Shown here piece after piece: positions 16,226 through 38,199 of a stretch of DNA of 64,000 nucleotides. The notes under the pieces are model-generated. The model was not told the DNA's origin. It ran no database searches and worked only from the letters and a program-made list of their open reading frames with translations. The first letter of the stretch is position 1; each line of letters starts with the position of its first letter. The position numbers and the translations under genes are program-made. The stretch comes from Escherichia phage vB_Eco_mar004NP2: the sequence record OR896837.1, one strand, 5' to 3'.

Positions 16226-16600
16226 AATATTATTTCTTTAACCACAGCAAAGATAAGCCCAGCATACTAAAACCGCTAACTAATCCGATACATTTTTCTT
16301 CTATAGTAAAAGTATCTAGATTAAATGCTGTTATAGCTATTGGTATACACCATAATGCCATAAAAACTTGAGCTATCTTGTGTTTCATTTTGCTTTCCTT
16401 CTCTTCACTTTATAAAATATATTATACAGATAATAAAGCAGAATAGCAAATGAATTTTTAATAAATTTACTTATTGTGTAGGCCACCTGGAGGCTACCAA
16501 CCCCACGGCTGACAAAGAAGTTTGCGAGACCTCTCTTAAATGCCAGAATAGACCCGGCGGGTCTATCGGAACCTACATAATAAGTAAACTTTATAGTGTC

Positions 16601-16720
16601 ATTCTAGACAGGACTCGAACCTATTATCACTTGTGCGGACTTACGAGAACCATTCTTTCACTCGAATCGAACGAGCTTCTGCCCTCGCCAAGCTGGTTTC
16701 CCCATCAACCACGCTAGAAT
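16601..16720 (-). ncRNA. tRNA-like structured RNA, about 120 nt
   Basis: Terminal 7-bp pairing ATTCTAG/CTAGAAT, D-like stem GGTT/AACC, T-arm ATAGG-TTCGAGT-CCTGT, but about 70 nt of extra internal sequence and no canonical anticodon arm. Confidence 0.3.
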
Positions 16721-16842
16721 GTTTGATTGTTTTCAGTGCAAGAGTCCGAGTCTTGGACACGACCGCTTCGCAAGTACATAGGCAGCTTATCATGAGTCAG
16801 CACTTCCGAATTGCTAGCTCCGTGTTCTGCACTGAAATTTTG

Positions 16843-17190
16843 TTAATTTAATAGTAAAGTACGATCTACTTCACCATTAATTGTTCGGCATTCTTCTGGG
16901 ATTGCTGGTGTAGTCTTATATTCCCACCATTCAGAACCATCATATTCACCACGTTCTAACCAAGTTCCATCGGTAAACCATACGTTACCATAAAGCAATT
17001 GTCCGCCGAAACCAGAATCATGTTTAAAGTCTAGATTATCTAGAAAATCTTCAATATCTTTTTCTGTATAACCTACGGGTAATACCCAAACTTCTTTATC
17101 CCCATAATAACCGAATTCTATCTTAATACACTTAACTTCAGAATTAGTATTCTTTAGGGCAAGTAACAATTCTTCTTTAGCATTAATCAT
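16843..17190 (-). CDS. hypothetical protein (115 aa)
   Basis: ORF inside the tRNA region. Confidence 0.45.
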   Translation of the reverse strand: MINAKEELLLALKNTNSEVKCIKIEFGYYGDKEVWVLPVGYTEKDIEDFLDNLDFKHDSGFGGQLLYGNVWFTDGTWLERGEYDGSEWWEYKTTPAIPEECRTINGEVDRTLLLN

Positions 17191-17216: not shown

Positions 17217-17291
17217 TGGTACACCCTGTTCGTATCGAACGAACCTCTCAAGCTCTTCAGGCAAGCGCTAATCCATCTCAGCTAAAGGTGC
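17217..17291 (-). tRNA. tRNA-Phe-like (GAA) candidate, possibly defective
   Basis: 75 nt; acceptor GCACCTT/AGGGTGT with 2 G-U pairs; T-arm GTTCG-TTCGATA-CGAAC; loop CTGAAGA; anticodon stem has two T-T mismatches. Confidence 0.4.
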
Positions 17292-17445: not shown

Positions 17446-17523
17446 TGGTGGCTCCCCGAGGATTCGAACCTACGTACCTTCCGGTTATGAGCCGGGTGCT
17501 CATACCATATGAGCTTGAGAACC
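17446..17523 (-). tRNA. tRNA with CAU anticodon (Met/Ile2), second copy
   Basis: Acceptor GGTTCTC/GGGAGCC + A + CCA; D-arm GCTCA/TGAGC; loop CTCATAA; weak T-stem. Confidence 0.5.
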
Positions 17524-17638: not shown

Positions 17639-18157
17639 TTAGAAATTTAGCTTCATAGCAAGAAAATTTTTCAAGTTTTCGGTAGACATCTCATCCACAT
17701 CTACAGGAGAAACAAATCCATTTAATTGTCTAGCAAATTTTTCACCAGCAGGATCATTATCCCCAACAGCTACCAATTTAAAAGGTAGTAATTTCAATTG
17801 CTTTAACAACGCTTTTCCGGGGGAAGAACCCAACATTGCCAGGGCTGGATAACCAGCGTTATGTAACGCAACTGCCTTAAATACAGATTCAGCAATCAAT
17901 ACTACTTTTTCGTCTCCATTGAGAGTTTCTAGTCCCCGTACACACTGTGTAGTAGAATAAGTAAAATATCTAGCTTCAAAGGGGCATTTACCATGACCTT
18001 TTGGAGCAGAAGGATTATAAGTCTGATAGCCTCTCAACATCCCAGAGAAGTCATACAATGGGACTGTTAGCCATCCTTCTGGGCTTAGCCAGCAGTGATA
18101 TTTATCTGTATCAAACCCTCTAGATAAGAGATGTTCTGTTAGTTCATCAACAGTCAT
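17639..18157 (-). CDS. Toprim-domain protein
   Basis: Conserved Glu in VVLIAESV and acidic cluster VAVGDNDPAGEKFA resemble the Toprim fold. Confidence 0.45.
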   Translation of the reverse strand: MTVDELTEHLLSRGFDTDKYHCWLSPEGWLTVPLYDFSGMLRGYQTYNPSAPKGHGKCPFEARYFTYSTTQCVRGLETLNGDEKVVLIAESVFKAVALHNAGYPALAMLGSSPGKALLKQLKLLPFKLVAVGDNDPAGEKFARQLNGFVSPVDVDEMSTENLKNFLAMKLNF

Positions 18158-19814: not shown

Positions 19815-19890
19815 TACCGACCGTAGGATTCGAACCTACATCTTCCACCAGTTACGGCTTGATAATACCAATTATACTAGGACGGCAGTG
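19815..19890 (-). ncRNA. tRNA-like element, possible tRNA pseudogene
   Basis: Perfect T-arm GTAGG-TTCGAAT-CCTAC and partial acceptor pairing; no anticodon stem could be folded; no CCA. Confidence 0.3.
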
Positions 19891-20161: not shown

Positions 20162-20605
20162 TTAATTAAATTCGCCAGCAATCTGAGCAGCAGTACCACC
20201 ATCATAACGCCCAGGAAATTCTTCCTTAATCGCTTTCATTAGCATACCTTTTGTAATTCCAGGGTTTAGCTTAACTAATTCTGCAAAGTATTTACGAATC
20301 TCAGTATCAGATAACTGAGGAGGCAGATACTCCTGCAACCACTTATTTAGAATGTATTCATACTGAGCGGACTGCAAGCTATAACTATCAAGATCTTGAC
20401 CATGAAGTTTAGCTTTCATCTGGTTAATGCTTTTTAGTTGAGCTTTGAGATAAGACACAAATTGTTCAGAAGTGATGAAATCTTTATTAATACGCTGAAG
20501 ATCCCCGATTATGGTCTGATAGCTTTTAGCGACTTCTTTATCAGAACCATTAAACTTAGAATCCTGCAAAGCTCTACGCAAAACATCTAAAATATTCTCT
20601 TCCAT
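20162..20605 (-). CDS. GatB/YqeY-domain protein
   Basis: C-terminal GMLMKAIKEEFPGRYDGGTAAQI matches the YqeY/GatB C-terminal signature. Confidence 0.55.
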   Translation of the reverse strand: MEENILDVLRRALQDSKFNGSDKEVAKSYQTIIGDLQRINKDFITSEQFVSYLKAQLKSINQMKAKLHGQDLDSYSLQSAQYEYILNKWLQEYLPPQLSDTEIRKYFAELVKLNPGITKGMLMKAIKEEFPGRYDGGTAAQIAGEFN

Positions 20606-28959: not shown

Positions 28960-31290
28960 TTAAATAGTACAACCACCGGATGCACAACCGGCTGCTTCTT
29001 CTCCAGCACCTCCACCATTTGCGGTATTGAAGTTAGCATAATACCAAGTTTTCCACCCATACTTAACAGCAGTCATGAAATCACGAACTACTACTGGGCC
29101 AGGAATGATTTCATTCTCAAACTTGGTGTAGTCATAGTACATATTAGTACTGATAGACTGACTGAAGAATTTCTGCATAGTTGCTACCCACTTGATCCAC
29201 TCGATACGATCTACATCATAGGCCAGTTTATAGCTCATTAACGTTTCCCAATCGGTTGCACCTGGAGCAATTGCAATTACTTTATTTACTGCACTACCCT
29301 TGATAGATACAATCTTACGAGGTGGTTCAATAGAGTTAGTAACACCTAACAGAACAGAAGAACTTTCTCCCGGCATCTGAGCAGTCAGAACAGAGTTACG
29401 CATACCATATTTCAGAATATCTGCACGTAGAGACTCCCAATCCATTTCTAGACCTACGGATACCAGTTCATCAACAGTTTTCTTGTACGTGTCGATTACC
29501 AGAATTCCTTTAGATGGTTTAGTACGATCAAACCACTCACATGCACCCTGTTCTTTAGCTAGGCGTACAGAGGCTTTATGCAGGAAGTAAGACAGTTTTT
29601 CAGCCTCACGGTGAATCCAGTTACGGGCTTCAATACCTTCATAAGCCAGACCTTCTGCTGCCATTGCACCTGCTGCGTTCATCAGTCCAATACCAACATT
29701 ACGACGTTTCTTAGCCGTATATTCCATAGTTGGGAACGGATAATCCTGGATTTCAATAATTGTATCAACGAATTTCAGGAGGATGTAGCAAGTTTTTTCC
29801 CACTCAGCCAGAGATTCCATGCGTCCAAGTACAACACCACCTAAGTTACACAGAGATACTTCACCAATATCCTCCGGCTTCATTTGATCAAGTTGTTCTT
29901 TTGTTTTATACAGTTCCGTGATATGGTGGAACGGGCGTGTAGGCTGAGTAATCTCAACACAAAGGTTTGTCATACGGATCGGATCAAGGAAATTACCGTG
30001 ACGATTAGATTCCCCGATGTGATGCGCATACATACGTCCTGTTTCCATTCGGATACGTAGCCAAGTATCTAGGATTTCTTTTGCAGAGACTTTAGGAGCT
30101 GCTGGAACTGTTTTTCCTTCGTGGTCGATCTTTGTAAGAGATGCCACACGTTTCTCCGCTGCCACGTAGATTTCTTCAAATTTAGCCTCGTCATCACTAT
30201 AAAACGCTTCATGAACTTCTGGAGCATAGAAGTATGACATTAGCGTAATATCTTCGTTTTTAAGATAACGTTTTAACAAAAGATTGTTAAAGCTCAGAGA
30301 ATAATCCATCTTATCGATTTTATTCTCATCTGTAGCACGTTGTTGCTTAACCTGCATCAATTGAATGATTTCAGGGTCGAAGTACGGATAAGACACTGTG
30401 GCAGAACCACCACGAGTTTGCTGAGTATTGGCCTTTACTGAGCGGTCAATGTGTCGATAATATGGCAGTTTTCCGGAATGCGGGAATGCCCCATTTCGCA
30501 CCGGATCAGCAATTGATCGGCTTTCAAGATGATACCCGATTCCCGCTCTGGCTGCGACCATTTTGAAGACGATGTGCTCGGCGGTGTCGATTGAATCCAA
30601 CGTGTCAGTGGAATCCACGAGGCAGCAACTAGCAAATCCACGGTCACTAGAGCGCAGACCAACCAGTGGCGGCGTAGGAACGTTGATTTTGTGGAGTGAC
30701 ATTGCGTTGTAGAGGTCGATTGCATCTAGAATTGTCCAGCTAGGTTGAGATAACATCGCCATTGCCATACCCATGTAGGCAAACTGCGGAGTTTCATAAA
30801 TTTCACCAGTGGCTATGTTACGACGGGAATACTTATCAAAGAACTGTTTCAGTCCACCACTAGTAAAAAGACGGTCACGATCATGGTCGATAACCTGATT
30901 CAGAGCTTCGAACTGCTCATCGGTAATCCATGCACTCATGTCTTCCCATGCACCTACGCTAACCATATGGTCATGGAAGAAGCGTAGAGAAGGTGGTTCG
31001 AAAGAGTCGTAAAGGCGTTTACGCATTTGCGCAAGACGTAATTCCTTTGCTGGCACATCGTATGCTGGGTTATCTTTGATAAGACTTTCAGCAGCTTTAA
31101 TTAATGCGTCCATCAGAGTGTCGGAATCTACAACCCCCTTAGGCAGAGTTTTTTGAGCAGCCATAGTAATGGCTGACCAACTTACATCAACTGTTTTGCA
31201 ACCATACTCTGCCCAACCATTGAGTTTTTCAGGAGCAAAGTCTTCTACAGTACCGTCACGTTTAATTACTTTTTCAATGCGATGGCTCAT
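28960..31290 (-). CDS. nrdA: ribonucleotide reductase large subunit
   Basis: ATP-cone N-terminus MSHRIEKVIKRDG, class I catalytic motifs, C-terminal Cys pair; start set at ATG 31290 with RBS rather than track start 31395. Confidence 0.9.
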   Translation of the reverse strand: MSHRIEKVIKRDGTVEDFAPEKLNGWAEYGCKTVDVSWSAITMAAQKTLPKGVVDSDTLMDALIKAAESLIKDNPAYDVPAKELRLAQMRKRLYDSFEPPSLRFFHDHMVSVGAWEDMSAWITDEQFEALNQVIDHDRDRLFTSGGLKQFFDKYSRRNIATGEIYETPQFAYMGMAMAMLSQPSWTILDAIDLYNAMSLHKINVPTPPLVGLRSSDRGFASCCLVDSTDTLDSIDTAEHIVFKMVAARAGIGYHLESRSIADPVRNGAFPHSGKLPYYRHIDRSVKANTQQTRGGSATVSYPYFDPEIIQLMQVKQQRATDENKIDKMDYSLSFNNLLLKRYLKNEDITLMSYFYAPEVHEAFYSDDEAKFEEIYVAAEKRVASLTKIDHEGKTVPAAPKVSAKEILDTWLRIRMETGRMYAHHIGESNRHGNFLDPIRMTNLCVEITQPTRPFHHITELYKTKEQLDQMKPEDIGEVSLCNLGGVVLGRMESLAEWEKTCYILLKFVDTIIEIQDYPFPTMEYTAKKRRNVGIGLMNAAGAMAAEGLAYEGIEARNWIHREAEKLSYFLHKASVRLAKEQGACEWFDRTKPSKGILVIDTYKKTVDELVSVGLEMDWESLRADILKYGMRNSVLTAQMPGESSSVLLGVTNSIEPPRKIVSIKGSAVNKVIAIAPGATDWETLMSYKLAYDVDRIEWIKWVATMQKFFSQSISTNMYYDYTKFENEIIPGPVVVRDFMTAVKYGWKTWYYANFNTANGGGAGEEAAGCASGGCTI

Positions 31291-31411
31291 TTGGCTTTCC
31301 TTTTTATAGTTATCAGGATTTAAGGAATATTCTACTTTATTATCTGTCATTAGGCAAATAAAATTTTCTGATAGAAAAGGCCCGAGTATTTTCATACCCA
31401 GGCCCTGTATA

Positions 31412-31723
31412 TTACCAGTCTAGCTTTTTAGCTTGTTCAATTACTTTAGCTCTAGCTACTTCTTTTAATAGAATATCTATAGAGGTGCTCAGCTCGTTAT
31501 AATTGAATGGTTTATTTGGATTTGAGGTTACAATTTTCCACGCTAGGGTTGTCTTAGGACTTTCTTTCCCTTCCTTACGTGTAATCATATTAGCAGCACT
31601 CAGTGAAGTACGATGTATTTTAGTTTTACGGCTCAGATGAACGACGTTTCCCATATTACACCTTTCCCATATCTTTAAAAATATCATAGAATGCTTTAGA
31701 CTCAACAGAACGAACGTTATCAA
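31412..31723 (-). CDS. hypothetical small protein
   Basis: ORF; overlaps phoH 3' end so true start is probably internal. Confidence 0.3.
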   Translation of the reverse strand: MITFVLLSLKHSMIFLKIWERCNMGNVVHLSRKTKIHRTSLSAANMITRKEGKESPKTTLAWKIVTSNPNKPFNYNELSTSIDILLKEVARAKVIEQAKKLDW

Positions 31724-32408
31724 TCAATTCGATCATTGAGAATGGGGCATTTTCATATTTCTCATAGACTTCCATAAGGAGTGCTAGACCTGAGTCACCT
31801 TTAATGTCTTTCTGAGCTATATCTCCGCAGATAATTAAACGGCAGTCTTGCCCTACACGAGTTAGGAGACAAATCATTGCCTCAACGGAAATATTCTGAG
31901 CTTCATCGACAATTACATAGGAGTTGTTGAAAGTTCTGCCACGAGCATGTTCGACAGCCAAAAATTTAATTTTCTGACGTTCGACATATCCCTTATAGGC
32001 ATGATCGCCGATGGCCCATTTCATACCATCAGCTATTGGCTCTAACCAAGGCTCTAGCTTTTCCGCCAGATCACCAGGAAGCATACCAAGAGACTTACCT
32101 AGAGGTTCATTAGGACGTACGAGAATCACTTGCTCAATATCTGAGTGAATGTCTACGAGTTCCTGAGCTGCAAGAACGGACGGAATAAAGGTTTTACCAG
32201 TACCTGGCTCACCGATACCCACAGTCACTGTGTTGTTCTTGATCATATTGATATATGATTTTTGCTCGCGGTTTTTACCTACTAGGGATTTAGCAACTGG
32301 GTTAGCGTAATCATTAGAAAAATTAGTCTGAATTACGTTATTCTCATATTTGTTGCCACGCTTTCTTGAACCATTGCGGTTCTCTCTTTTTTGACGTGCT
32401 TTTCCCAT
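31656..32408 (-). CDS. phoH: PhoH-like ATPase
   Basis: Walker A GEPGTGKT and Walker B VIVDEAQN; start set at ATG 32408 after AGGAG RBS. Confidence 0.8.
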   Translation of the reverse strand: MGKARQKRENRNGSRKRGNKYENNVIQTNFSNDYANPVAKSLVGKNREQKSYINMIKNNTVTVGIGEPGTGKTFIPSVLAAQELVDIHSDIEQVILVRPNEPLGKSLGMLPGDLAEKLEPWLEPIADGMKWAIGDHAYKGYVERQKIKFLAVEHARGRTFNNSYVIVDEAQNISVEAMICLLTRVGQDCRLIICGDIAQKDIKGDSGLALLMEVYEKYENAPFSMIELIDNVRSVESKAFYDIFKDMGKV

Positions 32409-32481
32409 AAATAACACTCCTATAGTGTACTTCGCTAACAGAGGATCAACAAAAAGATCTTGTTTATCAACTTACAAATAT

Positions 32482-32510
32482 ATTATACCAATATATACAG
32501 TAAAAAGCAA
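32482..32510 (-). promoter_or_regulatory. sigma70-like promoter reading leftward toward phoH
   Basis: Reverse complement gives TTGCTT, 17-bp spacer, TATAAT. Confidence 0.45.
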
Positions 32511-32622
32511 CTACAATTTTAAATAAGCCTATGATATTGCATTTAAATAAAAAATTTGCTTGCTTTTAACGTGAGATGTGTGATACTAGATAATCATTTT
32601 ATATCGCGTGTACGAGTGCGTG

Positions 32623-32651
32623 ATTATACAATTTTTAATAGAGATTGGCAA
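32623..32651 (-). promoter_or_regulatory. second leftward sigma70-like promoter
   Basis: Reverse complement TTGCCA, 17 bp, TATAAT. Confidence 0.4.
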
Positions 32652-32702
32652 ATAAAATTTTTTGACTCAGATCATGTTACAGAACTTTATAGTAAAATAT
32701 TG

Positions 32703-32731
32703 TTGACATCTGCCCTCGAATGAGTTATAAT
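32703..32731 (+). promoter_or_regulatory. consensus sigma70 promoter for nrdD
   Basis: TTGACA, 17-bp spacer, TATAAT, then GGAGAG RBS and ATG at 32761. Confidence 0.65.
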
Positions 32732-32760
32732 AGTAGTCTTAGTTATAGAAGGAGAGTATA

Positions 32761-34635
32761 ATGAATCGCAATGAAGAACTAAAGTATAAAGAAATGCAGG
32801 CGTTAATTAGAAACTGCAAAGAGATTATCGAAGGGTCAGCAGATGAAGAGCTGCTGTTTAATAATGCCAATAAACCCTCAGAACGTTTCCCTACACAAAG
32901 GGATATGCTTGCAGGTGAATTGAGTAAGTATCTGATTCTAGAAGAAATGCCAATTCAGATTCGAAATGCTCATATGATTGGGGATATTCATTTCCATGAT
33001 GCTGATTATGCTGCATTAGGCATGACTAACTGTTGCCTGGTAGCTCTGGAAGATATGTTGAAGAATGGTATGAAGGTTGGTAATGCTGAAATTAGCACTC
33101 CAAACTCTATCACTACTGCGGCGGCTATCACTGCTCAGATTATCACTCAAGTTAGCTCCCATCAGTATGGTGGTACTTCTGTAGATCGCCTTGATGAAGT
33201 ATTAGCACCTTATGTTCGTAAATCCTATGACAAAAATCATGCGTTTGCAAAACGTTGGACTAAGGATGAAGCCAAAGCATCCGTAATGGCTACGGAGATG
33301 ACTGAAAAAGAAGTCTATGACGCTTGTCAGGGTTTAGAATATGAAATCAATACCATGTTCAACTCTAATGGTCAGAGTCCGTTTATTACCTTTGGTTTTG
33401 GTCTAGGAACTTCTTGGGAAGCACGTCTAGTACAGAAAGCAATACTGAAAGTACGCATGGATGGTTTAGGTATCAATAAGCGTACAGCTATCTTCCCGAA
33501 ACTGGTATTTGTACTCCGTGATGGCGTTAACATGAAACCAGGAGATGTTAATTATGACATCAAGAAGTTAGCTATGAAATGTACTGCTGAACGTATGTAT
33601 CCAGATTATATCAGCTATGATAAGGTTGTGGAAGTTACTGGAGACTATAAAGTTTCTATGGGCTGCCGTTCATTCCTAGCTGCTACAGAAGATGGTGAAA
33701 CTGCCGGTCGTAATAACTTAGGTGTTGTTTCTGTAAACTTGCCTAGAATTGCTATCGAAGCTGAAGGAAATATTGACCTATTCTTTGATTTGCTTGAGCT
33801 ACGTGTGGATACAGCGTTAAAAGCATTGGAGTGGAGAGTTGATCGCTTAAAATACATCCAAGCTAAAGCTGCGCCCATCCTCTATATGTCAGGAGCCTTT
33901 GGACTGCGCTTGGAGCCTGATGAATATGTATTCGATCATTTCTATAACCGTGCTTCTGTATCTCTAGGGTATATTGGTTGCCATGAAATGCTACAGTTCA
34001 TGTTTGGCAAAGATGTAGACACAATGTCCGAGACCTGCATCAAGTTTGTTCAGCGTGTATTGCAGTACATGCGGGATAGAGTCGATCAGAAGAAGGAAGA
34101 AACTAAGTTAGGTTATAGCCTGTATGCTACACCATCAGAATCCCTATGTGACCGTTTTTGTCGTCTAGACCGCGAATATTTCCCGGAGCATGAAGATATT
34201 CTGTCTAAAGGATACTACACTAACTCGCACCACCTTGATGTAGAACGTAAGGTTGCTCCCAATGTGAAATTTGATTATGAATCTAACTTTACGCCTATTG
34301 CTTCTGGTGGGTGCATTTCCTATGTAGAACTACCAGATATGAAACGATTCCCAGATGCACTGGAATGGGTTATTAATTATGCTGCTAGTAAAGTTCATTA
34401 CTTCGGTATTAATACTCCAGTGGATTCTTGCGGTAAATGTGGATTCTTAGGTGAAACAGTAGCATCCGAAGATGGGTTTAAGTGCCCTATCTGTGGTAAT
34501 CATGATCCCGAAACTCTTGAAGTAACTCGCCGAGTTTGTGGGTATCTTGGAAATCCAGGTGCTCGTCCATTTAACCCTGGTAAACAGCACGAGGTTATGG
34601 GCAGGGTGAAACATCAGGATATTCGAGCTAAATAA
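32761..34635 (+). CDS. nrdD: anaerobic ribonucleoside-triphosphate reductase
   Basis: C-terminal glycyl-radical motif RVCGYLGNP; Zn-ribbon cysteines CGKCG...CPICG. Confidence 0.9.
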   Translation: MNRNEELKYKEMQALIRNCKEIIEGSADEELLFNNANKPSERFPTQRDMLAGELSKYLILEEMPIQIRNAHMIGDIHFHDADYAALGMTNCCLVALEDMLKNGMKVGNAEISTPNSITTAAAITAQIITQVSSHQYGGTSVDRLDEVLAPYVRKSYDKNHAFAKRWTKDEAKASVMATEMTEKEVYDACQGLEYEINTMFNSNGQSPFITFGFGLGTSWEARLVQKAILKVRMDGLGINKRTAIFPKLVFVLRDGVNMKPGDVNYDIKKLAMKCTAERMYPDYISYDKVVEVTGDYKVSMGCRSFLAATEDGETAGRNNLGVVSVNLPRIAIEAEGNIDLFFDLLELRVDTALKALEWRVDRLKYIQAKAAPILYMSGAFGLRLEPDEYVFDHFYNRASVSLGYIGCHEMLQFMFGKDVDTMSETCIKFVQRVLQYMRDRVDQKKEETKLGYSLYATPSESLCDRFCRLDREYFPEHEDILSKGYYTNSHHLDVERKVAPNVKFDYESNFTPIASGGCISYVELPDMKRFPDALEWVINYAASKVHYFGINTPVDSCGKCGFLGETVASEDGFKCPICGNHDPETLEVTRRVCGYLGNPGARPFNPGKQHEVMGRVKHQDIRAK

Positions 34636-34642
34636 GCTAATC

Positions 34643-34679
34643 AGCCGGGTTGCTAGTCGACCTGGCTTTTATTTTATTT
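34643..34679 (+). terminator. rho-independent terminator after nrdD
   Basis: GC hairpin (AGCCGGG...CCTGGCT) followed by TTTTATTTTATTT. Confidence 0.5.
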
Positions 34680-34706
34680 GCTTTCAGCCAAAAATTTATG
34701 TATAAT
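34678..34706 (+). promoter_or_regulatory. sigma70-like promoter
   Basis: TTGCTT, 17 bp, TATAAT, followed by the conserved ATAAATTTGAGAGGAG leader. Confidence 0.55.
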
Positions 34707-34734
34707 TGATTTATAAATTTGAGAGGAGAAAGCT

Positions 34735-34947
34735 ATGAGAGTTCACAAGGTAGATAAAGAACGTATCTATTTTATTATGGATTCTGGGGCGTATGGTTCC
34801 ATTCTCCGTGGGGATATAGCTAAATTATGTTTAGTAAATACTTGGATGGACGAAGGGAAGATTGATCCTAGGGTGGGATTGTGCTTATCTGGGCCCGCCC
34901 TTTATATTGCTAGTGCAGAAATTGAAATGTTTGAGGAACAAGAATGA
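34735..34947 (+). CDS. hypothetical protein (70 aa)
   Basis: ORF with RBS GAGAGGAG. Confidence 0.45.
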   Translation: MRVHKVDKERIYFIMDSGAYGSILRGDIAKLCLVNTWMDEGKIDPRVGLCLSGPALYIASAEIEMFEEQE

Positions 34948-35147
34948 AGAACGTAAAACATCTTAAATATCGCTTAATTTACAACGGACGTATGGAAACA
35001 GAAGACCTGGCCCAGTTAGCTATTAATTCTAATGAGGTTACAGTGCGTGCGCTGGCAATTGAAAAGTTGCGTGCTTCTTATGAAAATCGTGTTATGGAAC
35101 TAGAGGAGAAACTTTATGGCATTCTCGAAGCCGATGCTACCAGATAA
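34944..35147 (+). CDS. hypothetical protein (67 aa)
   Basis: ATGA-coupled ORF. Confidence 0.4.
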   Translation: MKNVKHLKYRLIYNGRMETEDLAQLAINSNEVTVRALAIEKLRASYENRVMELEEKLYGILEADATR

Positions 35148-35337
35148 GGGTTTAAATGCCGCTTTGGAAAACGCATTAATGCAGCATTGGGAAACTGGCT
35201 ATAAGGATGGTGTTGAATCCTGCGCTAATATGCTAGAAGTTATTGCTAATACCTTAATGGAGAAAGGCAATAAAGAATTAGCTGAGCTATTAGACAGTAT
35301 TGGGCAAAACTTCAGAGAACAGGTGGAAAATGCGTAG
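35116..35337 (+). CDS. hypothetical protein (73 aa)
   Basis: ORF. Confidence 0.4.
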   Translation: MAFSKPMLPDKGLNAALENALMQHWETGYKDGVESCANMLEVIANTLMEKGNKELAELLDSIGQNFREQVENA

Positions 35338-36148
35338 ATTAATTATTATTAGCGGTGCGGGTTTGAGTGTTGAAAGTGGTGTACGAGCTTTTCGTACTGA
35401 TACTGCTAGTGGTAAAGCACTGTGGGATGATTATGATCTAGAAGAAGTATGTAATATTCATGCCTTTCGTAGTAATTTTTACCATAAAACCCATATGTTT
35501 TACAACAAACGTCGTGAAGAGCTAAAAACTGTTGAACCCAATCTTGCACATTTGCGTATTGGTGAATGGTATAAACAATATCCAGGTCAGGTAGTAAACT
35601 TGACTACCAACGTTGATGACCTTATTGAGCGTGCTGGCGTTCCACATAGTGACATTCTGCACATTCACGGATATTTAAAAGAGGTTATTGTAGCTGATAG
35701 CTACAATAGTAGCAATAAACGGATTATTGATGTAGGGTACAATTCTATTGATCCAGATGATTATAAATGGGTTAAACCTAATGTAATCTTCTTTGGGGAG
35801 CATGCTCCAGCGTATGCAGAAATGTACAATATTTTTGATGGTATTACCAGTCAAGATATGATCATTGTGGTTGGTTGCTCTAACCAAGTAATTAACTTCT
35901 ACTGGGAATTATTTCCTGTTCTTAATTTGACTGCTGCGAAACTTATGGTTGTTAACTACTATGATAGTGCCCTCGCAGCGGAACCGGGCTATCAAGGTAT
36001 GACTCGTAGTGAGATGTACCAGCTGGAAGAACGTGGTATCCCTTACTGGAGTAAAGGTGCGGTAGATGCTTTCAACGACCCTGATTTTATTGCTCGTGTA
36101 GAAGCCCATTTAGAGGGTAGACCTTATGTGTCGAGAAGCAAGAAATAA
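35330..36148 (+). CDS. Sir2-family (sirtuin-like) NAD-binding protein
   Basis: GAGLSVESGVRAFR, NVDDLIERAG, HIHG, FFGE motifs; no Zn-binding Cys tetrad visible; start set at ATG 35330. Confidence 0.65.
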   Translation: MRRLIIISGAGLSVESGVRAFRTDTASGKALWDDYDLEEVCNIHAFRSNFYHKTHMFYNKRREELKTVEPNLAHLRIGEWYKQYPGQVVNLTTNVDDLIERAGVPHSDILHIHGYLKEVIVADSYNSSNKRIIDVGYNSIDPDDYKWVKPNVIFFGEHAPAYAEMYNIFDGITSQDMIIVVGCSNQVINFYWELFPVLNLTAAKLMVVNYYDSALAAEPGYQGMTRSEMYQLEERGIPYWSKGAVDAFNDPDFIARVEAHLEGRPYVSRSKK

Positions 36149-36240
36149 TGAATGGGATATTTTTATAGCTTAGTCTGGCACTTGGTGTTATATATATGTT
36201 GATACGGTTGAGTATGATACGTTCTTAGAAAGGAACAAAA

Positions 36241-36747
36241 ATGGAAATAAGTAATACTCCAATTATTTTTCTAGACATTGATGGGGTGCTCAATTCGAGC
36301 ATCTCCCATCATCATGCACCTGATAATGAAAAGATTTTCTTTGGAAGTGACTGGGTTTTCAAACCGCTTCTCAAGGCTTTTCAGGATTTTATTCGTCCTT
36401 CTCCGATAATGATTGTTGGAGTATCCTCATGGTTCTCTGTTAGGAATGAGATGGAGAACGTTCAGATTATGACCGGATTAGGTCTTATCGATCGTTTTCT
36501 TGGTACAACTGATTTTACTGGGGGTGGGCTATCTAGAGGTAATTCTGTTCTCCGTTTCGTTGAAAAGCATAAGCTCAAACATTGGTGTGTGCTTGATGAT
36601 GCTGGTGCTACGATGTATCAGTATCCAACGGTTATAGTCAACGGTAGGACTGGGATAAATCTTCAAGATTTAAAAGCTGTTAGCTATATGCTAGAATTTA
36701 GCCCAGATATTGAAATGTGTAAATCCTTACAACAATTTAAGGTGTAA
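36241..36747 (+). CDS. HAD-superfamily phosphatase (nucleotidase-like)
   Basis: N-terminal FLDIDGVLN (DxDG) motif. Confidence 0.55.
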   Translation: MEISNTPIIFLDIDGVLNSSISHHHAPDNEKIFFGSDWVFKPLLKAFQDFIRPSPIMIVGVSSWFSVRNEMENVQIMTGLGLIDRFLGTTDFTGGGLSRGNSVLRFVEKHKLKHWCVLDDAGATMYQYPTVIVNGRTGINLQDLKAVSYMLEFSPDIEMCKSLQQFKV

Positions 36748-36749
36748 AT

Positions 36750-37178
36750 ATGTTCAATAATGTATTCTCTAAAGAAGCTAACCCAATTTTGGTTAACTTT
36801 TGGCGTACTCTCCCAGCTAGCCTGTATAATGAGGCTATTAACTCTTTGAAAATATGGTGTGAGAATAACGAAATCTCCTTTGCTTTTAAGGATGATATTG
36901 ATGAGGCCCCCTGTATTGGTTTAATTGTGCAGGTAGAGGATGGTCTTGAAGAGATTGTGGGCTGGAAAGAGTTAGACGAAATGGGCTTAGTTTTTGCGTT
37001 AAACTATAAGCTGTTTATGCCTGCTAAGCATCGCCTAGTTGTTAACTATAAAACTAGTGAATCTCCTGGTTTTCAGGTTAATGAACGTTATGGTTGGTCT
37101 TACTCACCGGAAGAAGTGAATGAGGGGATTCAGAAACTTCGCCGTTTCGGGTATATGATCCCAGGTTTAACTGCTTAA
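36750..37178 (+). CDS. hypothetical protein, paralog A of tandem pair
   Basis: Shares SF(A/T)F...(D/P)C.G...W.EL..MGL...LN..LF...PGL with the next ORF. Confidence 0.5.
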   Translation: MFNNVFSKEANPILVNFWRTLPASLYNEAINSLKIWCENNEISFAFKDDIDEAPCIGLIVQVEDGLEEIVGWKELDEMGLVFALNYKLFMPAKHRLVVNYKTSESPGFQVNERYGWSYSPEEVNEGIQKLRRFGYMIPGLTA

Positions 37179-37187
37179 GGAGGCAGA

Positions 37188-37580
37188 ATGGAACAAGTAT
37201 ATTGGCGTCAGATTGATCCTAGTTTGGTGAAGCGTGCTGAGAAGCTGCTACAACGTTGGTTGGGGGTAAAGCAAGCCTCCTTCACTTTTCCAGAGCAGCA
37301 AATAGATGATCCCTGCACTGGCGTTTTCCTGTCTGGATATGCCGGGGAATGGGAGATGGACTGGAATGAATTGTCCTCTATGGGTTTAATTGTTTCCCTA
37401 AATTTCTCTTTGTTCCATCCACGTGGTTTTGCCATATGTCGTGTGCCTGATGACGGTTGTTCGCCCCATCTTTTACAGGTGAAAGATGATATTTGGGAGT
37501 ACACTCCAGATATTCTCAAAGAAGCTAAAGAACAATTAAACCGTGTTGGGATTTATGTTCCAGGCCTAAATGATGAATGA
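37188..37580 (+). CDS. hypothetical protein, paralog B of tandem pair
   Basis: Similarity to preceding ORF. Confidence 0.5.
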   Translation: MEQVYWRQIDPSLVKRAEKLLQRWLGVKQASFTFPEQQIDDPCTGVFLSGYAGEWEMDWNELSSMGLIVSLNFSLFHPRGFAICRVPDDGCSPHLLQVKDDIWEYTPDILKEAKEQLNRVGIYVPGLNDE

Positions 37581-37671
37581 TTTTTACTAGCTGAACTCTG
37601 ATTACCGAGTCATTTTGGCTCGGTTTTCTCTGTACTCAAAGACACTGATAGCACCTTTGGGAAAAATTTAC

Positions 37672-37700
37672 TTGCACGGTGCTCAAAATCTTGATATAAT
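37672..37700 (+). promoter_or_regulatory. sigma70-like promoter at start of a 0.6-kb non-coding region
   Basis: TTGCAC, 17 bp, TATAAT. Confidence 0.55.
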
Positions 37701-38199
37701 ATTTATATTGAATTGAGAGACATTAGTAAAAATTGATTTTGCTAATTTTTCTTGTTTACAATCCGCGATACGGAACAGTTAGGCTGCCCCATTAAGGGTT
37801 GTTTTAACTGTTACGTGTTAGTTTTTAAACAAATAGTTAATAGAATACTTAGCGATCTGCGTCCCGTAGGAACCCTGGTAAGGCCTCGAAGCAACCTAGA
37901 TAGAGGTGGTTGTGAAGTGAGACGGGAGGAGTGAAAAACTCCGAGACGTGATTCTGTAAGTTATATTGCATCTAGTATGAGCTAGTATATGAAGCATTAG
38001 GTGAGCAAATCTGGCTTAGCGGCCATCCTCAAGGATTTGTGCGGTATAGCAAAGCAGCAGCGCAGCGTGAAAGTGGAAGTTGCCACCCCACTTCAGTATT
38101 TGCGATTAATTTGTTGAGAAATTGACAGTAACAGTTGTTCTATTCTTTCTGAATAGTCCTAAAGAAAACTTATTTCATTTCCAACACAGGAGTATTGTT

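What the first reader, a model, noticed from the sequence alone, without database searches (positions are those of the whole stretch)
16601..16720. 120-nt tRNA-like RNA with canonical acceptor and T-arm but about 70 nt of extra internal sequence
On the minus strand, ATTCTAG pairs perfectly with CTAGAAT 106 nt away, next to a good T-arm (ATAGG-TTCGAGT-CCTGT) and a D-like stem (GGTT/AACC). Between them are extra hairpins, including a second T-arm-like hairpin (CTCG-TTCGATT-CGAG), and no standard anticodon arm. It could be an intron-containing or insertion-bearing tRNA, a tRNA-derived regulatory RNA, or another stable phage RNA.
Basis: seen in the sequence. Interest (0 to 1): 0.55.

Follow-up and report, generated by a model that had tools for sequence, protein, structure and literature searches.

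The report
Phage T5 "RNA2": tRNA with swapped anticodon loop
This is the already-annotated T5/BF23 stable "RNA2", a transfer-RNA-shaped molecule whose anticodon loop is replaced by a conserved 55-base folded module; relatives sit in the tRNA gene arrays of many unrelated phages, and its function is still unknown.

Summary
Window 16601-16720 (minus strand) is 96-100% identical to the gene annotated in phage T5 (rna2/T5s06) and BF23 as "tRNA-like stable RNA with unknown functions".

One point needs correcting. There is a normal 5-bp anticodon stem (RNA 28-32 with 88-92). Only the 7-nt anticodon loop is missing, replaced by a 55-nt insert.

I collected about 50 distinct relatives:
- T5-like phages of four or more genera
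- Acinetobacter T4-like phages
- uncultured contigs up to 363 kb, from IMG/VR and metagenomes

Across them, every cloverleaf helix and the inner T-arm-like hairpin covary strongly. Two further short helices, P1 and P2, close the insert.

The insert is the best-conserved part (about 0.8 column conservation, against 0.41 for the acceptor stem). Members lie in phage tRNA arrays on the same strand as every tRNA there, at a median of 11 nt from the nearest. A scan of 185,579 bacterial and archaeal genomes found one hit.

It cannot be a normal decoder, and the T5 copy lies inside a viable deletion.

Most likely it is matured like a tRNA and acts as a non-decoding tRNA mimic. A role as a decoy against tRNA-targeting host defences is my guess and is untested.

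The gene is already known. The breadth of the family and the anatomy of the module appear undescribed.

The parts
16601..16720 (-). Whole RNA (120 nt), the orthologue of T5/BF23 rna2 (RNA2). The base after the 3' end, G at 16600, sits at the discriminator position. CCA is not encoded here (GACA follows).
   Evidence: the annotated orthologues; the covariance model spans 1-120 at 147.6 bits; 96% identity to BF23 RNA2.
16714..16720 (-). Acceptor stem, 5' strand (RNA 1-7, AUUCUAG).
   Evidence: all 7 acceptor pairs change on both sides across the family (for example AGACAAU/AUUGUCU in the Pantoea phage and UACGGGG/CUCCCGUA in Klebsiella phages).
16601..16607 (-). Acceptor stem, 3' strand (RNA 114-120, CUAGAAU).
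16694..16711 (-). D arm (RNA 10-27): a 5-bp stem UGGUU/AACCA with loop GAUGGGGA, which contains the GG.
   Evidence: 5 of 5 pairs covary. Distant members have textbook D arms (GCUC AGUUGGUA GAGC in L168).
16689..16693 (-). Anticodon stem, 5' strand (RNA 28-32, GCUUG).
   Evidence: helix 3, 5 of 5 pairs covary, 97% of cells paired.
16629..16633 (-). Anticodon stem, 3' strand (RNA 88-92, CAAGU).
16634..16688 (-). 55-nt insert that replaces the anticodon loop (RNA 33-87). It is the most conserved part of the family.
   Evidence: mean column conservation is 0.77-0.81, against 0.41 for the acceptor stem and 0.47 for the anticodon stem, in 35 sequences less than 90% identical to each other.
16681..16684 (-). 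P1, 5' strand (RNA 37-40, GGGC), part of the near-invariant AGGGYNG motif.
   Evidence: three invariant pairs (G-C, G-C, G-U). The fourth pair is U-A in 21 sequences, C-G in 11 and unpaired in 16. Support is weak to moderate.
16637..16640 (-). P1, 3' strand (RNA 81-84, GUCC).
16678..16679 (-). P2, 5' strand (RNA 42-43, GA).
   Evidence: G42-C76 is invariant. N43-N75 is AU 19, UA 13, GC 6, GU 2, UG 2, CG 1, with 4 unpaired. This pair was not in the model used to build the alignment.
16645..16646 (-). P2, 3' strand (RNA 75-76, UC).
16660..16676 (-). Inner T-arm-like hairpin (RNA 45-61): stem GCUCG/CGAGU, a 7-nt loop UUCGAUU that matches the T-loop consensus, and a G-C closing pair.
   Evidence: helix 5, 4 of 5 pairs covary; loop conservation 0.94.
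16647..16659 (-). Conserved unpaired strand GAAAGAAUGGUUC (RNA 62-74) carrying the near-invariant AUGGU.
   Evidence: sequence conservation with no covarying partner. That its GG contacts the inner T-like loop is my inference.
16641..16644 (-). Invariant GUAA (RNA 77-80), an asymmetric bulge between P2 and P1, opposite the single base A41.
16634..16636 (-). Near-invariant GCA (RNA 85-87) between P1 and the anticodon stem. Together with the preceding NUCC it reads like the 3' part of an anticodon loop (N-U-C-C-G-C-A).
   Evidence: ARAGORN in intron mode reads CCG as the anticodon in 8 of 48 members.
16625..16628 (-). Variable loop (RNA 93-96, GAUA).
   Evidence: 3-5 nt in all members.
16608..16624 (-). 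T arm (RNA 97-113, AUAGG UUCGAGU CCUGU).
   Evidence: helix 6, 4 of 5 pairs covary, 98% of cells paired.

Best explanation
**What it is (shown)**
A phage gene for a 120-nt tRNA-derived RNA, identical in kind to T5/BF23 "RNA2". It has a complete tRNA body:
- 7-bp acceptor stem
- D arm with GG
- 5-bp anticodon stem
- short variable loop
- canonical T arm

The 7-nt anticodon loop is replaced by a conserved 55-nt module. From the anticodon stem outward, the module runs:
- a small internal loop
- P1 (GGGY/RUCC)
- an A/GUAA asymmetric bulge
- P2 (2 bp)
- a T-arm-like hairpin with a UUCGAUU loop, plus a 13-nt conserved strand (GAAAGNAUGGU..)

**How it is made (inferred)**
This follows from the tRNA body, the tRNA-like spacing in same-strand tRNA arrays, and the encoded NCCA in some members. 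It is transcribed within the phage's polycistronic tRNA transcripts. RNase P and 3' trimming release it, and it receives CCA like a tRNA.

**How it works (inferred, not shown)**
It cannot decode. It acts as a tRNA mimic: the body engages tRNA-recognising machinery, while the rigid module at the anticodon end supplies the specific function.

My preferred specific version, at roughly 25%, is a decoy or competitive inhibitor. The target would be a host factor that inspects the anticodon end of tRNAs, such as an anticodon-loop nuclease or another tRNA-directed defence.

The broader statement, a non-decoding tRNA mimic acting in trans through the module, I put at about 50%.
For: **Identity**
- 96-100% identical to BF23 rna2 and to T5 rna2 (T5s06), both annotated "tRNA-like stable RNA with unknown functions".

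**Structure**
- Covariation on 48 distinct members: 93.8% of cells paired, against 61% shuffled and at most 45% slid. All acceptor, D and anticodon-stem pairs change on both sides.
- P2 was found independently by RNAalifold and was absent from the aligning model.
- The Rfam tRNA model spans two distant members (L168 and L062) across the insert, at 50.6 and 44.8 bits.

**The module is the selected part**
- Insert conservation is about 0.8, and the inner loop 0.94, against 0.41-0.53 for the body stems.

**tRNA-type biogenesis**
- All 397 tRNAs in member loci are on the same strand as the RNA.
- The median gap to the nearest tRNA is 11 nt, and 24 of 43 members lie within 15 nt of one.
- NCCA is encoded in 4 of 52 members, where about 0.8 would be expected by chance.

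**Not a decoder**
- There is no 7-nt loop.
- ARAGORN in intron mode gives nothing for T5-type copies and inconsistent isotypes elsewhere.
- The discriminator base varies across A, C, G and U.

**Restricted to phages**
- One hit in 185,579 bacterial and archaeal genomes, on a 167-kb contig carrying a tRNA array.

**Dispensable in the laboratory, as accessory counter-defence genes are**
- T5 rna2 (32959-33083) lies inside the viable T5Mos deletion 30661-38625 (PMC11464382).
- The same paper shows that a T5 tRNA neutralises the PARIS defence. That gives precedent for an anti-defence role of the T5 tRNA region.
Against: - No partner is known, and nothing here tests binding.
- No protein gene consistently accompanies the RNA.
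- A decoy for an anticodon nuclease would be expected to show an anticodon-loop-like surface. The module only partly does (N-U-C-C-G-C-A next to the stem).
- The module is nearly the same in phages of enterobacteria, Acinetobacter and unknown freshwater and soil hosts. That points to a universally conserved target such as the ribosome, RNase P or a modification enzyme, more than to a patchy defence system.
- Stability and end positions rest on the database annotation ("stable RNA"). I saw no data for them.
Confidence: 0.5

Rival explanations
1. It is a real tRNA, formally tRNA-Arg(CCG), interrupted by a short intron or carrying an extra arm at position 32-34. It decodes after the insert is removed, or even with it in place.
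For: - ARAGORN in intron mode of 48 members tRNA-Arg(CCG) with a 46-48-nt intron at 32-34.
- The 7 nt before the 3' strand of the anticodon stem read N-U-C-C-G-C-A. In some members the 5' linker ends in C-U, so excision could restore a 7-nt loop.
- No tRNA-Arg(CCG) was seen in any member array, although other Arg isoacceptors were.
- The Rfam tRNA model accepts L168 and L062 with the insert treated as an insertion.
Against: - The "intron" is the most conserved part of the RNA and the "exons" the least.
- Position 37 would be a pyrimidine (C or U) in every member.
- Base 36 varies between G and A, which would switch Arg to Trp. The discriminator varies across all four bases.
- In the T5 clade, including this window, no excision gives U33.
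- 48 nt is far too small for a group I intron. From general knowledge, bacteria have no protein tRNA-splicing endonuclease.
- T5 and BF23 annotate the full 125-nt form as the stable RNA.
Confidence: 0.1
2. It is a ribosome-directed tRNA-like RNA, analogous to tmRNA. The body enters the A site, or binds the ribosome through its two elbow-like ends, and the module stands in for a codon-anticodon helix. The effect would be to rescue, stall or reprogramme ribosomes during infection.
For: - The molecule is a tRNA body with a structured non-decoding domain.
- In the T5 copy, the string CGAGGG...CUCGUAAGUCCGCA superficially resembles pseudoknot PK1 of E. coli tmRNA followed by a GCA resume-like triplet. 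The tmRNA sequence here is from my memory.
- The near-universal conservation of the module fits a universal target.
- In Acinetobacter phage W16 the RNA is followed 20 nt later by a 76-aa RF-1 (GGQ) domain ORF.
Against: - There is no G3-U70 pair; the T5 copy has U3-A70.
- No conserved open reading frame starts at GCA. In L081 a stop follows after 2 codons, and in L045 there is none within the RNA (my reading of the sequences).
- ARAGORN and the Rfam tmRNA models do not match.
- The PK1-like S1 helix is not conserved even in BF23.
- The RF-1 neighbour occurs in one lineage only.
Confidence: 0.12
3. It works in cis, or has no function of its own. It could be a processing or stability element that organises RNase P/RNase E cleavage of the tRNA precursor, or a decayed tRNA pseudogene that picked up an insertion.
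For: - It sits within tRNA arrays at tRNA spacing.
- The T5 tRNA region is a hotspot for deletions and is dispensable.
- The T5 and BF23 records annotate several other stable RNAs of unknown function in the same region.
Against: - A pseudogene would not keep compensatory changes in all five helices.
- A pseudogene would not keep an insert at about 0.8 conservation across T5-like phages, Acinetobacter T4-like phages and 160-360-kb contigs.
- A processing signal needs only the tRNA body, not a conserved 55-nt module.
Confidence: 0.1
4. The region is protein-coding, as several GenBank records have it: they place "hypothetical protein" ORFs across it, and the window has a 50-aa minus-strand ORF and a 72-aa plus-strand ORF there. 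On this view the RNA fold is incidental.
For: ORFs 16641-16793 (-) and 16633-16851 (+) exist. Some records annotate hypothetical proteins over the match.
Against: - The substitution pattern is compensatory base-pairing across 31 pairs, not codon-like.
- Relatives differ by indels in loops.
- No ORF is conserved in distant members.
- The curated T5 and BF23 records annotate an RNA.
Confidence: 0.01

Closest known systems
Bacteriophage T5 rna2 (T5s06, NC_005859 32959-33083) and BF23 rna2 (AJ604530 5701-5825), annotated "tRNA-like stable RNA with unknown functions"
   Same: It is the same gene. Identity is 96-100%, the genomic position matches (after the T5.067 homologue and before RNAIV), and the length and fold match.
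   Different: Nothing material differs. BF23 has an extra tRNA-Gly(GCC) directly downstream that this window lacks. The records give no structure for the insert and no function.
Canonical tRNA (Rfam RF00005)
   Same: - Acceptor, D, anticodon and T stems, the variable loop, the T-loop sequence and the D-loop GG are all present.
- It sits in tRNA arrays.
- Distant family members reach the Rfam tRNA gathering score.
   Different: - The 7-nt anticodon loop is replaced by about 55 nt.
- The window copy is not detected by Rfam (E up to 10) or by ARAGORN.
- There is no consistent anticodon or discriminator base.
tmRNA (SsrA)
   Same: It is a tRNA-like RNA whose anticodon end is replaced by another structured domain, and it is matured like a tRNA. 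Some phages encode tmRNA: a tmRNA sits in the L153 array.
   Different: - tmRNA lacks a D stem and an anticodon stem, is about 350 nt long, has G3-U70 and carries a tag ORF. None of this applies here.
- The tmRNA models do not match.
YrlA, the bacterial and phage Y RNA-like RNAs (Chen et al. 2014, PMC4201824)
   Same: It is a non-decoding RNA of about 100-120 nt with a tRNA-like domain (T arm, D arm). YrlA is modified by tRNA enzymes, and YrlA RNAs are also found in phages.
   Different: - In YrlA the 5' and 3' ends form the Ro-binding stem and the tRNA-like part is internal. Here the ends form a true acceptor stem.
- Rfam YrlA does not match the RNA (no hit at E up to 10). The only weak YrlA hit, in L160, lies over ordinary tRNAs.
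- No Ro60/TROVE gene turned up among the recurrent neighbours.
T4 stable RNAs species 1 and 2 (rnaC, rnaD), and T5/BF23 RNA1
   Same: - They are stable RNAs of unknown function encoded inside a phage tRNA cluster.
- T4 rnaC has an acceptor-like stem and a T arm.
- BF23 RNA1 has the same plan: a tRNA body with a 57-nt insert at the anticodon-loop position.
   Different: The inserts share no homology. The family model scores them 10-12 bits, through the tRNA body only.
[quoted passage not shown] 2013, PMC3664808)
   Same: The module contains a true T-loop hairpin. It also has purine-rich conserved strands, AGGG(U)A and UGGUA, that resemble the AG..A and UG..A cores of those modules, which dock onto tRNA elbows.
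   Different: - The resemblance is by eye only.
- The fifth-position A is not conserved: AGGGUUG or UGGUU in many members.
- The GGG appears to pair in P1.
- No 3D test was possible.

Membership tests
T5/BF23 RNA2 (rna2) | Sequence orthology with the annotated rna2 genes, in the same genomic position | tested here: met
   96% identity over 124 of 125 nt to BF23 rna2. The flanking spacer is 100% identical, and the RNAIV and ORF 2.10 homologues flank it. T5 rna2 is annotated at the matching place.
T5/BF23 RNA2 (rna2) | A stable transcript of about 120-125 nt in infected cells | not testable with these tools
   This rests only on the depositors' wording, "stable RNA".
tRNA (RF00005) | Cloverleaf: 7-bp acceptor stem, D arm, 5-bp anticodon stem and T arm with the T-loop consensus | tested here: met
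   all helices covary.
tRNA (RF00005) | A 7-nt anticodon loop with U33 and purine 37 | tested here: not met
   55 nt lie between the two strands of the anticodon stem. No excision restores U33 and purine 37 in the T5 clade.
tRNA (RF00005) | Reaches the Rfam gathering score, or is called by ARAGORN | tested here: not met
   The window copy gets no Rfam hit up to E = 10 and no ARAGORN call, with or without introns. Distant relatives L168 and L062 do pass Rfam.
Intron-containing tRNA (bacterial group I type) | An intron of about 200 nt or more with a group I core, flanked by exons that restore a canonical anticodon loop | tested here: not met
   The insert is 46-55 nt, and no Rfam intron family matches. 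Canonical loops are not restored.
Intron-containing tRNA (archaeal type) | A strict bulge-helix-bulge motif (3-nt bulge, 4-bp helix, 3-nt bulge) at the exon-intron junctions | tested here: inconclusive
   The arrangement only loosely resembles the motif: a 3-4 x 3 internal loop, the 4-bp P1, then a 1 x 4 loop. The extra unpaired bases GCA and A41 break the strict motif. The splicing endonuclease is not known in bacteria (general knowledge).
tmRNA | G3-U70 alanine identity pair | tested here: not met
   The pair is U3-A70 in the window copy, and it varies across the family.
tmRNA | A resume codon followed by a conserved tag ORF ending in a stop codon | tested here: not met
   Reading from the conserved GCA gives frames of very different length. 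They run through the T arm, and no tag is conserved (sequences).
tmRNA | Detected by ARAGORN or the Rfam tmRNA models | tested here: not met
YrlA / Y RNA | Match to Rfam YrlA or Y_RNA, with the Ro-binding stem formed by the 5' and 3' ends | tested here: not met
   No hit at E up to 10. The ends form an acceptor stem.
YrlA / Y RNA | Encoded next to a Ro60 (TROVE) gene | tested here: inconclusive
   The recurrent neighbouring ORF clusters are GIY-YIG endonucleases and hypothetical proteins. Not every neighbour was scanned against Pfam.
Double T-loop elbow-docking module | Two T-loop pentamers (AG..A and UG..A) interdigitated head to tail | not testable with these tools
   Sequence resemblance only, and the A5 positions are not conserved.

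The most novel reading that the evidence does not exclude
RNA2 would be the founding member of a widespread, phage-restricted class of tRNA-derived effector RNAs. In this reading a complete tRNA body serves as a chassis for maturation and for recognition by tRNA-binding machinery. The anticodon loop has been exchanged for a conserved module built on a T-loop, forming in effect a second elbow. The module would dock onto a universally conserved partner, such as the tRNA elbow of other tRNAs, the ribosome, or a tRNA-directed nuclease. The result would be an RNA-only device for counter-defence or for controlling translation. BF23/T5 RNA1, which has the same plan but a different insert, would be a second cargo on the same chassis.
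Probability: 0.3. Interest if true: 0.8.

Novelty: already known. Interest (0 to 1): 0.5.

Why it matters
T5 has carried this stable RNA of unknown function in its annotation for about two decades (Wang et al. 2005 genome).

This work adds three things:
- The RNA is not a T5 oddity. It belongs to a family spread over unrelated virulent phages that carry tRNA arrays.
- Selection acts mainly on the inserted module, not on the tRNA body.
- The module has a defined secondary structure: P1, a GUAA bulge, P2, a T-loop hairpin and an AUGGU strand.

That makes the old question testable, through module point mutants, pull-downs and a precise rna2 knockout on defence-carrying hosts.

If the module proves to bind a tRNA-directed defence nuclease or the ribosome, it would be a new type of RNA-based phage countermeasure. 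It would also be a ready-made scaffold for delivering RNA modules through the tRNA maturation pathway.

Tried and rejected
- **Single-sequence MFE fold.** Its helices 28-32/78-82 and 34-40/71-77 are not conserved. On the family alignment the second is paired in 72.8% of cells, against 72.5% after shuffling. BF23 itself breaks it (GCUAGGGC).
- **tmRNA-like reading.** A PK1-like pseudoknot and a GCA resume codon can be drawn for T5. There is no conserved S1 helix, tag ORF, G3-U70 pair or model hit.
- **Bacterial 5S loop-E or sarcin-ricin resemblance of GAGGGUAG / AUGGUA.** The resemblance is by eye only. The register is incompatible with the covarying P2 pair, so I dropped it.
- **Homology with T4 rnaC/rnaD.** They share short words (CCGUAAG, AUAUGGUU), but the family model matches only the acceptor and T arm of rnaC, at 10.5 bits.
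- **A conserved protein partner near the RNA.** All-against-all comparison of 1,031 ORFs within 4 kb in 43 loci found only GIY-YIG endonucleases (7 loci) and lineage-specific hypothetical proteins.
- **YqeY-like proteins.** They looked promising in three diverse loci. They are widespread in tRNA-rich phages that lack the RNA, such as phi92-like, Aeromonas and Pseudomonas jumbo phages.
- **The pattern AGGGTNG...GTTCRATTC.** It mostly retrieved ordinary class II tRNAs (variable arm plus T arm). Only two new members came from it.
- **Literature searches.** None found a paper describing this family or a function for T5 RNA2. The original Russian-group papers are not in the searchable library.

Full report
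**1. What is in the window**

On the minus strand, 16601-16720 reads ATTCTAG CG TGGTT GATGGGGA AACCA GCTTG [55 nt] CAAGT GATA ATAGG TTCGAGT CCTGT CTAGAAT.

The window is a T5-like phage (Tequintavirus). 505 phage records match the surrounding 500 nt, and the best are 99% identical.

ARAGORN finds five tRNAs nearby and Rfam finds eight, all on the minus strand. Neither reports anything at 16601-16720, even at E up to 10. The thermodynamic fold is no better than shuffles (z = -0.22), so the case must rest on comparison with relatives.

**2. It is a known gene**

The 130-nt query matches 484 phage records.
- The BF23 tRNA-region record AJ604530 annotates the match as "rna2: RNA2, tRNA-like RNA with unknown functions".
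- T5 RefSeq annotates rna2/T5s06, "tRNA-like stable RNA with unknown functions", at 32959-33083.

Mapping BF23 features onto the window gives this order:
- the ORF 2.10 homologue at 17185-16843
- a 121-nt spacer, 100% identical to BF23, at 16841-16722
- RNA2 at 16721-16598
- RNAIV at 16578-16475
- promoter P13a

BF23's tRNA-Gly(GCC), which lies just after RNA2, is absent here.

**3. A family well beyond T5**

Two exact-pattern scans of IMG/VR contributed most relatives and a third added two more. One scan of metagenomes followed. A covariance model built from six T5-like sequences was then run over all 188 fetched loci. Together these gave about 50 distinct members, scoring from 150 bits down to about 28.

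The members come from:
- Demerecviridae of several genera (Tequintavirus, Epseptimavirus, Sugarlandvirus, Hongcheonvirus, and a Pantoea phage)
- Acinetobacter T4-like phages (133, Acj9, W16)
- uncultured viral contigs of 160-363 kb

The same strict pattern hit only one of 185,579 bacterial and archaeal genomes. That hit was on a 167-kb contig that itself carries a tRNA array. The window holds a single copy.

**4. Structure from covariation**

On the 48-member alignment A4, the proposed structure has 93.8% of cells paired. Shuffling gives 61%, and sliding partners by 1-3 columns gives 32-45%. 26 of 31 pairs change on both sides.

| Helix | Pairs that covary |
|---|---|
| Acceptor stem | 7 of 7 |
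| D stem | 5 of 5 |
| Anticodon stem (RNA 28-32 with 88-92) | 5 of 5 |
| Inner T-like hairpin | 4 of 5 |
| T stem | 4 of 5 |

The alignment was fitted to this structure, which inflates the percentage paired. Acceptor stems with entirely different sequences (AUUCUAG, AGACAAU, UACGGGG, GACUUUG, AUGCGUA and others) show that the result is not an artefact of fitting.

RNAalifold on the same alignment added a helix that was not in my model. G42-C76 is invariant. N43-N75 is A-U in 19 sequences, U-A in 13, G-C in 6, G-U in 2, U-G in 2 and C-G in 1, with 4 unpaired.

Tested with P1 (GGGY 37-40 with RUCC 81-84), these six pairs are 91% paired, and their covariation exceeds all 500 shuffles and all slid controls. 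P1 alone is weak: three pairs are invariant, and the fourth is U-A in 21 sequences, C-G in 11 and unpaired in 16.

The helix 34-40/71-77 from the single-sequence fold does no better than shuffles.

The insert therefore runs as follows:
- anticodon stem
- an internal loop (2-5 variable nt on the 5' side; GCA on the 3' side)
- P1
- an A / GUAA asymmetric bulge
- P2
- the T-like hairpin, after one base (A44), plus the 13-nt strand GAAAGNAUGGUNN

One lineage (L041) lacks the hairpin and the AUGGU strand but keeps P1, GUAA and P2.

**5. Where selection acts**

In 35 sequences less than 90% identical to each other, mean column conservation is as follows:

| Region | Conservation |
|---|---|
| Insert | 0.77-0.81 |
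| Inner T-like loop | 0.94 |
| Acceptor stem | 0.41 |
| Anticodon stem | 0.47 |
| D arm | 0.53 |

The body is kept in shape only. The module is kept in sequence.

**6. Genomic context**

- In 43 member loci that contain tRNAs, all 397 tRNAs lie on the same strand as the RNA.
- The median distance to the nearest tRNA is 11 nt, and 24 members are within 15 nt of one.
- Four of 52 members encode N-CCA after the acceptor stem, where about 0.8 would be expected by chance.
- No promoter-like or terminator-like site separates the window copy from its neighbours. The nearest promoter-like sites are at 17661-17633 and 16449-16421.
- No protein family consistently accompanies the RNA.

**7. Is it a tRNA with an intron?**

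The Rfam tRNA model accepts two distant members across the insert: L168 at 50.6 bits and L062 at 44.8 bits. ARAGORN in intron mode of 48 members tRNA-Arg(CCG) with a 46-48-nt intron at position 32-34. It does so because the 7 nt before the 3' strand of the stem read N-U-C-C-G-C-A. No tRNA-Arg(CCG) appears in the member arrays I could see. This rival is real.

Four things count against it:
- The supposed intron is the conserved part.
- Position 37 would always be a pyrimidine.
- Base 36 is A in four lineages, which would change the anticodon to CCA, and the discriminator base takes all four values.
- In the T5 clade no excision gives U33, and ARAGORN calls none of the T5-type copies.

The insert is also too short for a group I intron. 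I put this rival at about 10%.

**8. Other comparisons**

- **tmRNA:** no G3-U70 pair, no conserved tag frame and no model match.
- **YrlA:** no Rfam match, and the ends form an acceptor stem, not a Ro-binding stem (PMC4201824).
- **T4 rnaC and rnaD:** not members.
- **BF23/T5 RNA1:** it shares the plan, a tRNA body with a 57-nt insert at the anticodon-loop position, but not the insert sequence.
- **Double T-loop modules:** the conserved strands AGGG(U)A and UGGUA recall the AG..A and UG..A cores of the modules that RNase P, the L1 stalk and T-box leaders use to stack on tRNA elbows (PMC3664808). The key adenines are not conserved, and I could not test 3D structure.

**9. Function**

T5 rna2 lies inside the T5Mos deletion (30661-38625), and T5Mos is viable. 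The tRNA region is a known deletion hotspot (PMC11464382; PMC12483538). RNA2 is therefore an accessory gene under laboratory conditions.

The same literature shows that T5 tRNAs counter tRNA-cleaving defences. Given this, and given a tRNA body that cannot decode, I favour a non-decoding tRNA mimic acting in trans through its module (about 50%). The specific guess is a decoy or inhibitor for a factor that inspects the anticodon end of tRNAs (about 25%).

The near-identity of the module in phages of very different hosts argues for a universally conserved target such as the ribosome, RNase P or a tRNA enzyme. I keep a ribosome-directed role as a serious rival (about 12%). None of this is shown.

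**10. Verdict**

The object is already known and annotated as T5/BF23 RNA2.

Three things appear new, as far as the searchable literature and Rfam 15 show:
- the breadth of the family
- the finding that a normal anticodon stem carries a conserved module in place of the loop
- the secondary structure of that module

Interest is moderate. It is a long-standing "unknown function" RNA that is now well enough defined to attack by experiment.

Noticed in passing
window 16722-16841 (-): The 121-nt spacer between the T5.067-like ORF and RNA2 is 100% identical to BF23, while the flanking ORF is only 87% identical. It is unannotated in T5 and BF23. It has an 11-bp long-range helix (UUCAGUGCAGA...UCUUGCACUGAA) and folds at z = -1.6. 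It could be another structured RNA or a precursor-processing element.
   Followed up: partly
window 16475-16578 (-): This is the homologue of T5/BF23 "RNAIV, stable RNA with unknown functions" (93% identity). It folds significantly better than shuffles (z = -3.1, 0 of 200 shuffles as stable). Rfam has no match.
   Followed up: partly
window 17220-17291, 17449-17523 and 19815-19886 (-): Three tRNAs pass the Rfam gathering score (40.0, 40.3 and 35.5 bits), but ARAGORN does not call them. The first corresponds to BF23 tRNA-Phe. The phage's tRNA count from ARAGORN alone is therefore too low.
   Followed up: partly
L001 5450-5593 (BF23 RNA1; T5 30501-30644): RNA1, a second "tRNA-like stable RNA", has the same plan as RNA2: acceptor, D arm, a 4-5-bp anticodon stem (AUAGG/CUAU) and T arm, with a 57-nt insert in place of the anticodon loop. 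The insert sequence is unrelated. BLAST did not find RNA1 in this window.
   Followed up: partly
L007 508-738 (Acinetobacter phage W16; same in L074): The RNA2-family member is followed 20 nt downstream by a 76-aa ORF with an RF-1 (GGQ peptidyl-tRNA hydrolase) domain (Pfam E = 3e-10). It is much shorter than ArfB. This was seen in one lineage only.
   Followed up: partly
window 20162-20605 (-); L045 3005-3508; L058 4635-5102: YqeY-like proteins (GatB C-terminal-like; annotated "tRNA amidotransferase" in several phage records) sit in the tRNA regions of three very different RNA2-bearing phages. tblastn shows the family is widespread in tRNA-rich phages in general, with no specific link to RNA2.
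   Followed up: yes
window 17639-18157 (-): A 172-aa ORF inside the tRNA cluster (the T5.069 / BF23 trn 2.8 homologue, annotated as hypothetical) has a Toprim-like domain (Pfam PF13155, 24.5 bits, above the cut-off).
   Followed up: no
L188 7053-7127; L174 1300-1373 and 2473-2546; L050 12400-12474; L051 5451-5523: Several arrays that hold an RNA2-family member also hold suppressor-type tRNAs (anticodon CUA, and UUA in L174). In L188 the CUA tRNA directly abuts the RNA. This may point to stop-codon recoding in those phages.
   Followed up: no
L045 8968-9093 and 9119-9228; L159 1368-1490; L175 5111-5224; L151 4372-4472: The family model gives weak hits (17-24 bits) of 100-126 nt. These are too long for ordinary tRNAs and may be further tRNA bodies carrying other inserts.
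   Followed up: no
L153 7557-7931: A 48-kb metagenomic contig carrying an RNA2-family member also encodes a tmRNA (tag ANDTVYALAA) within its tRNA array.
   Followed up: no
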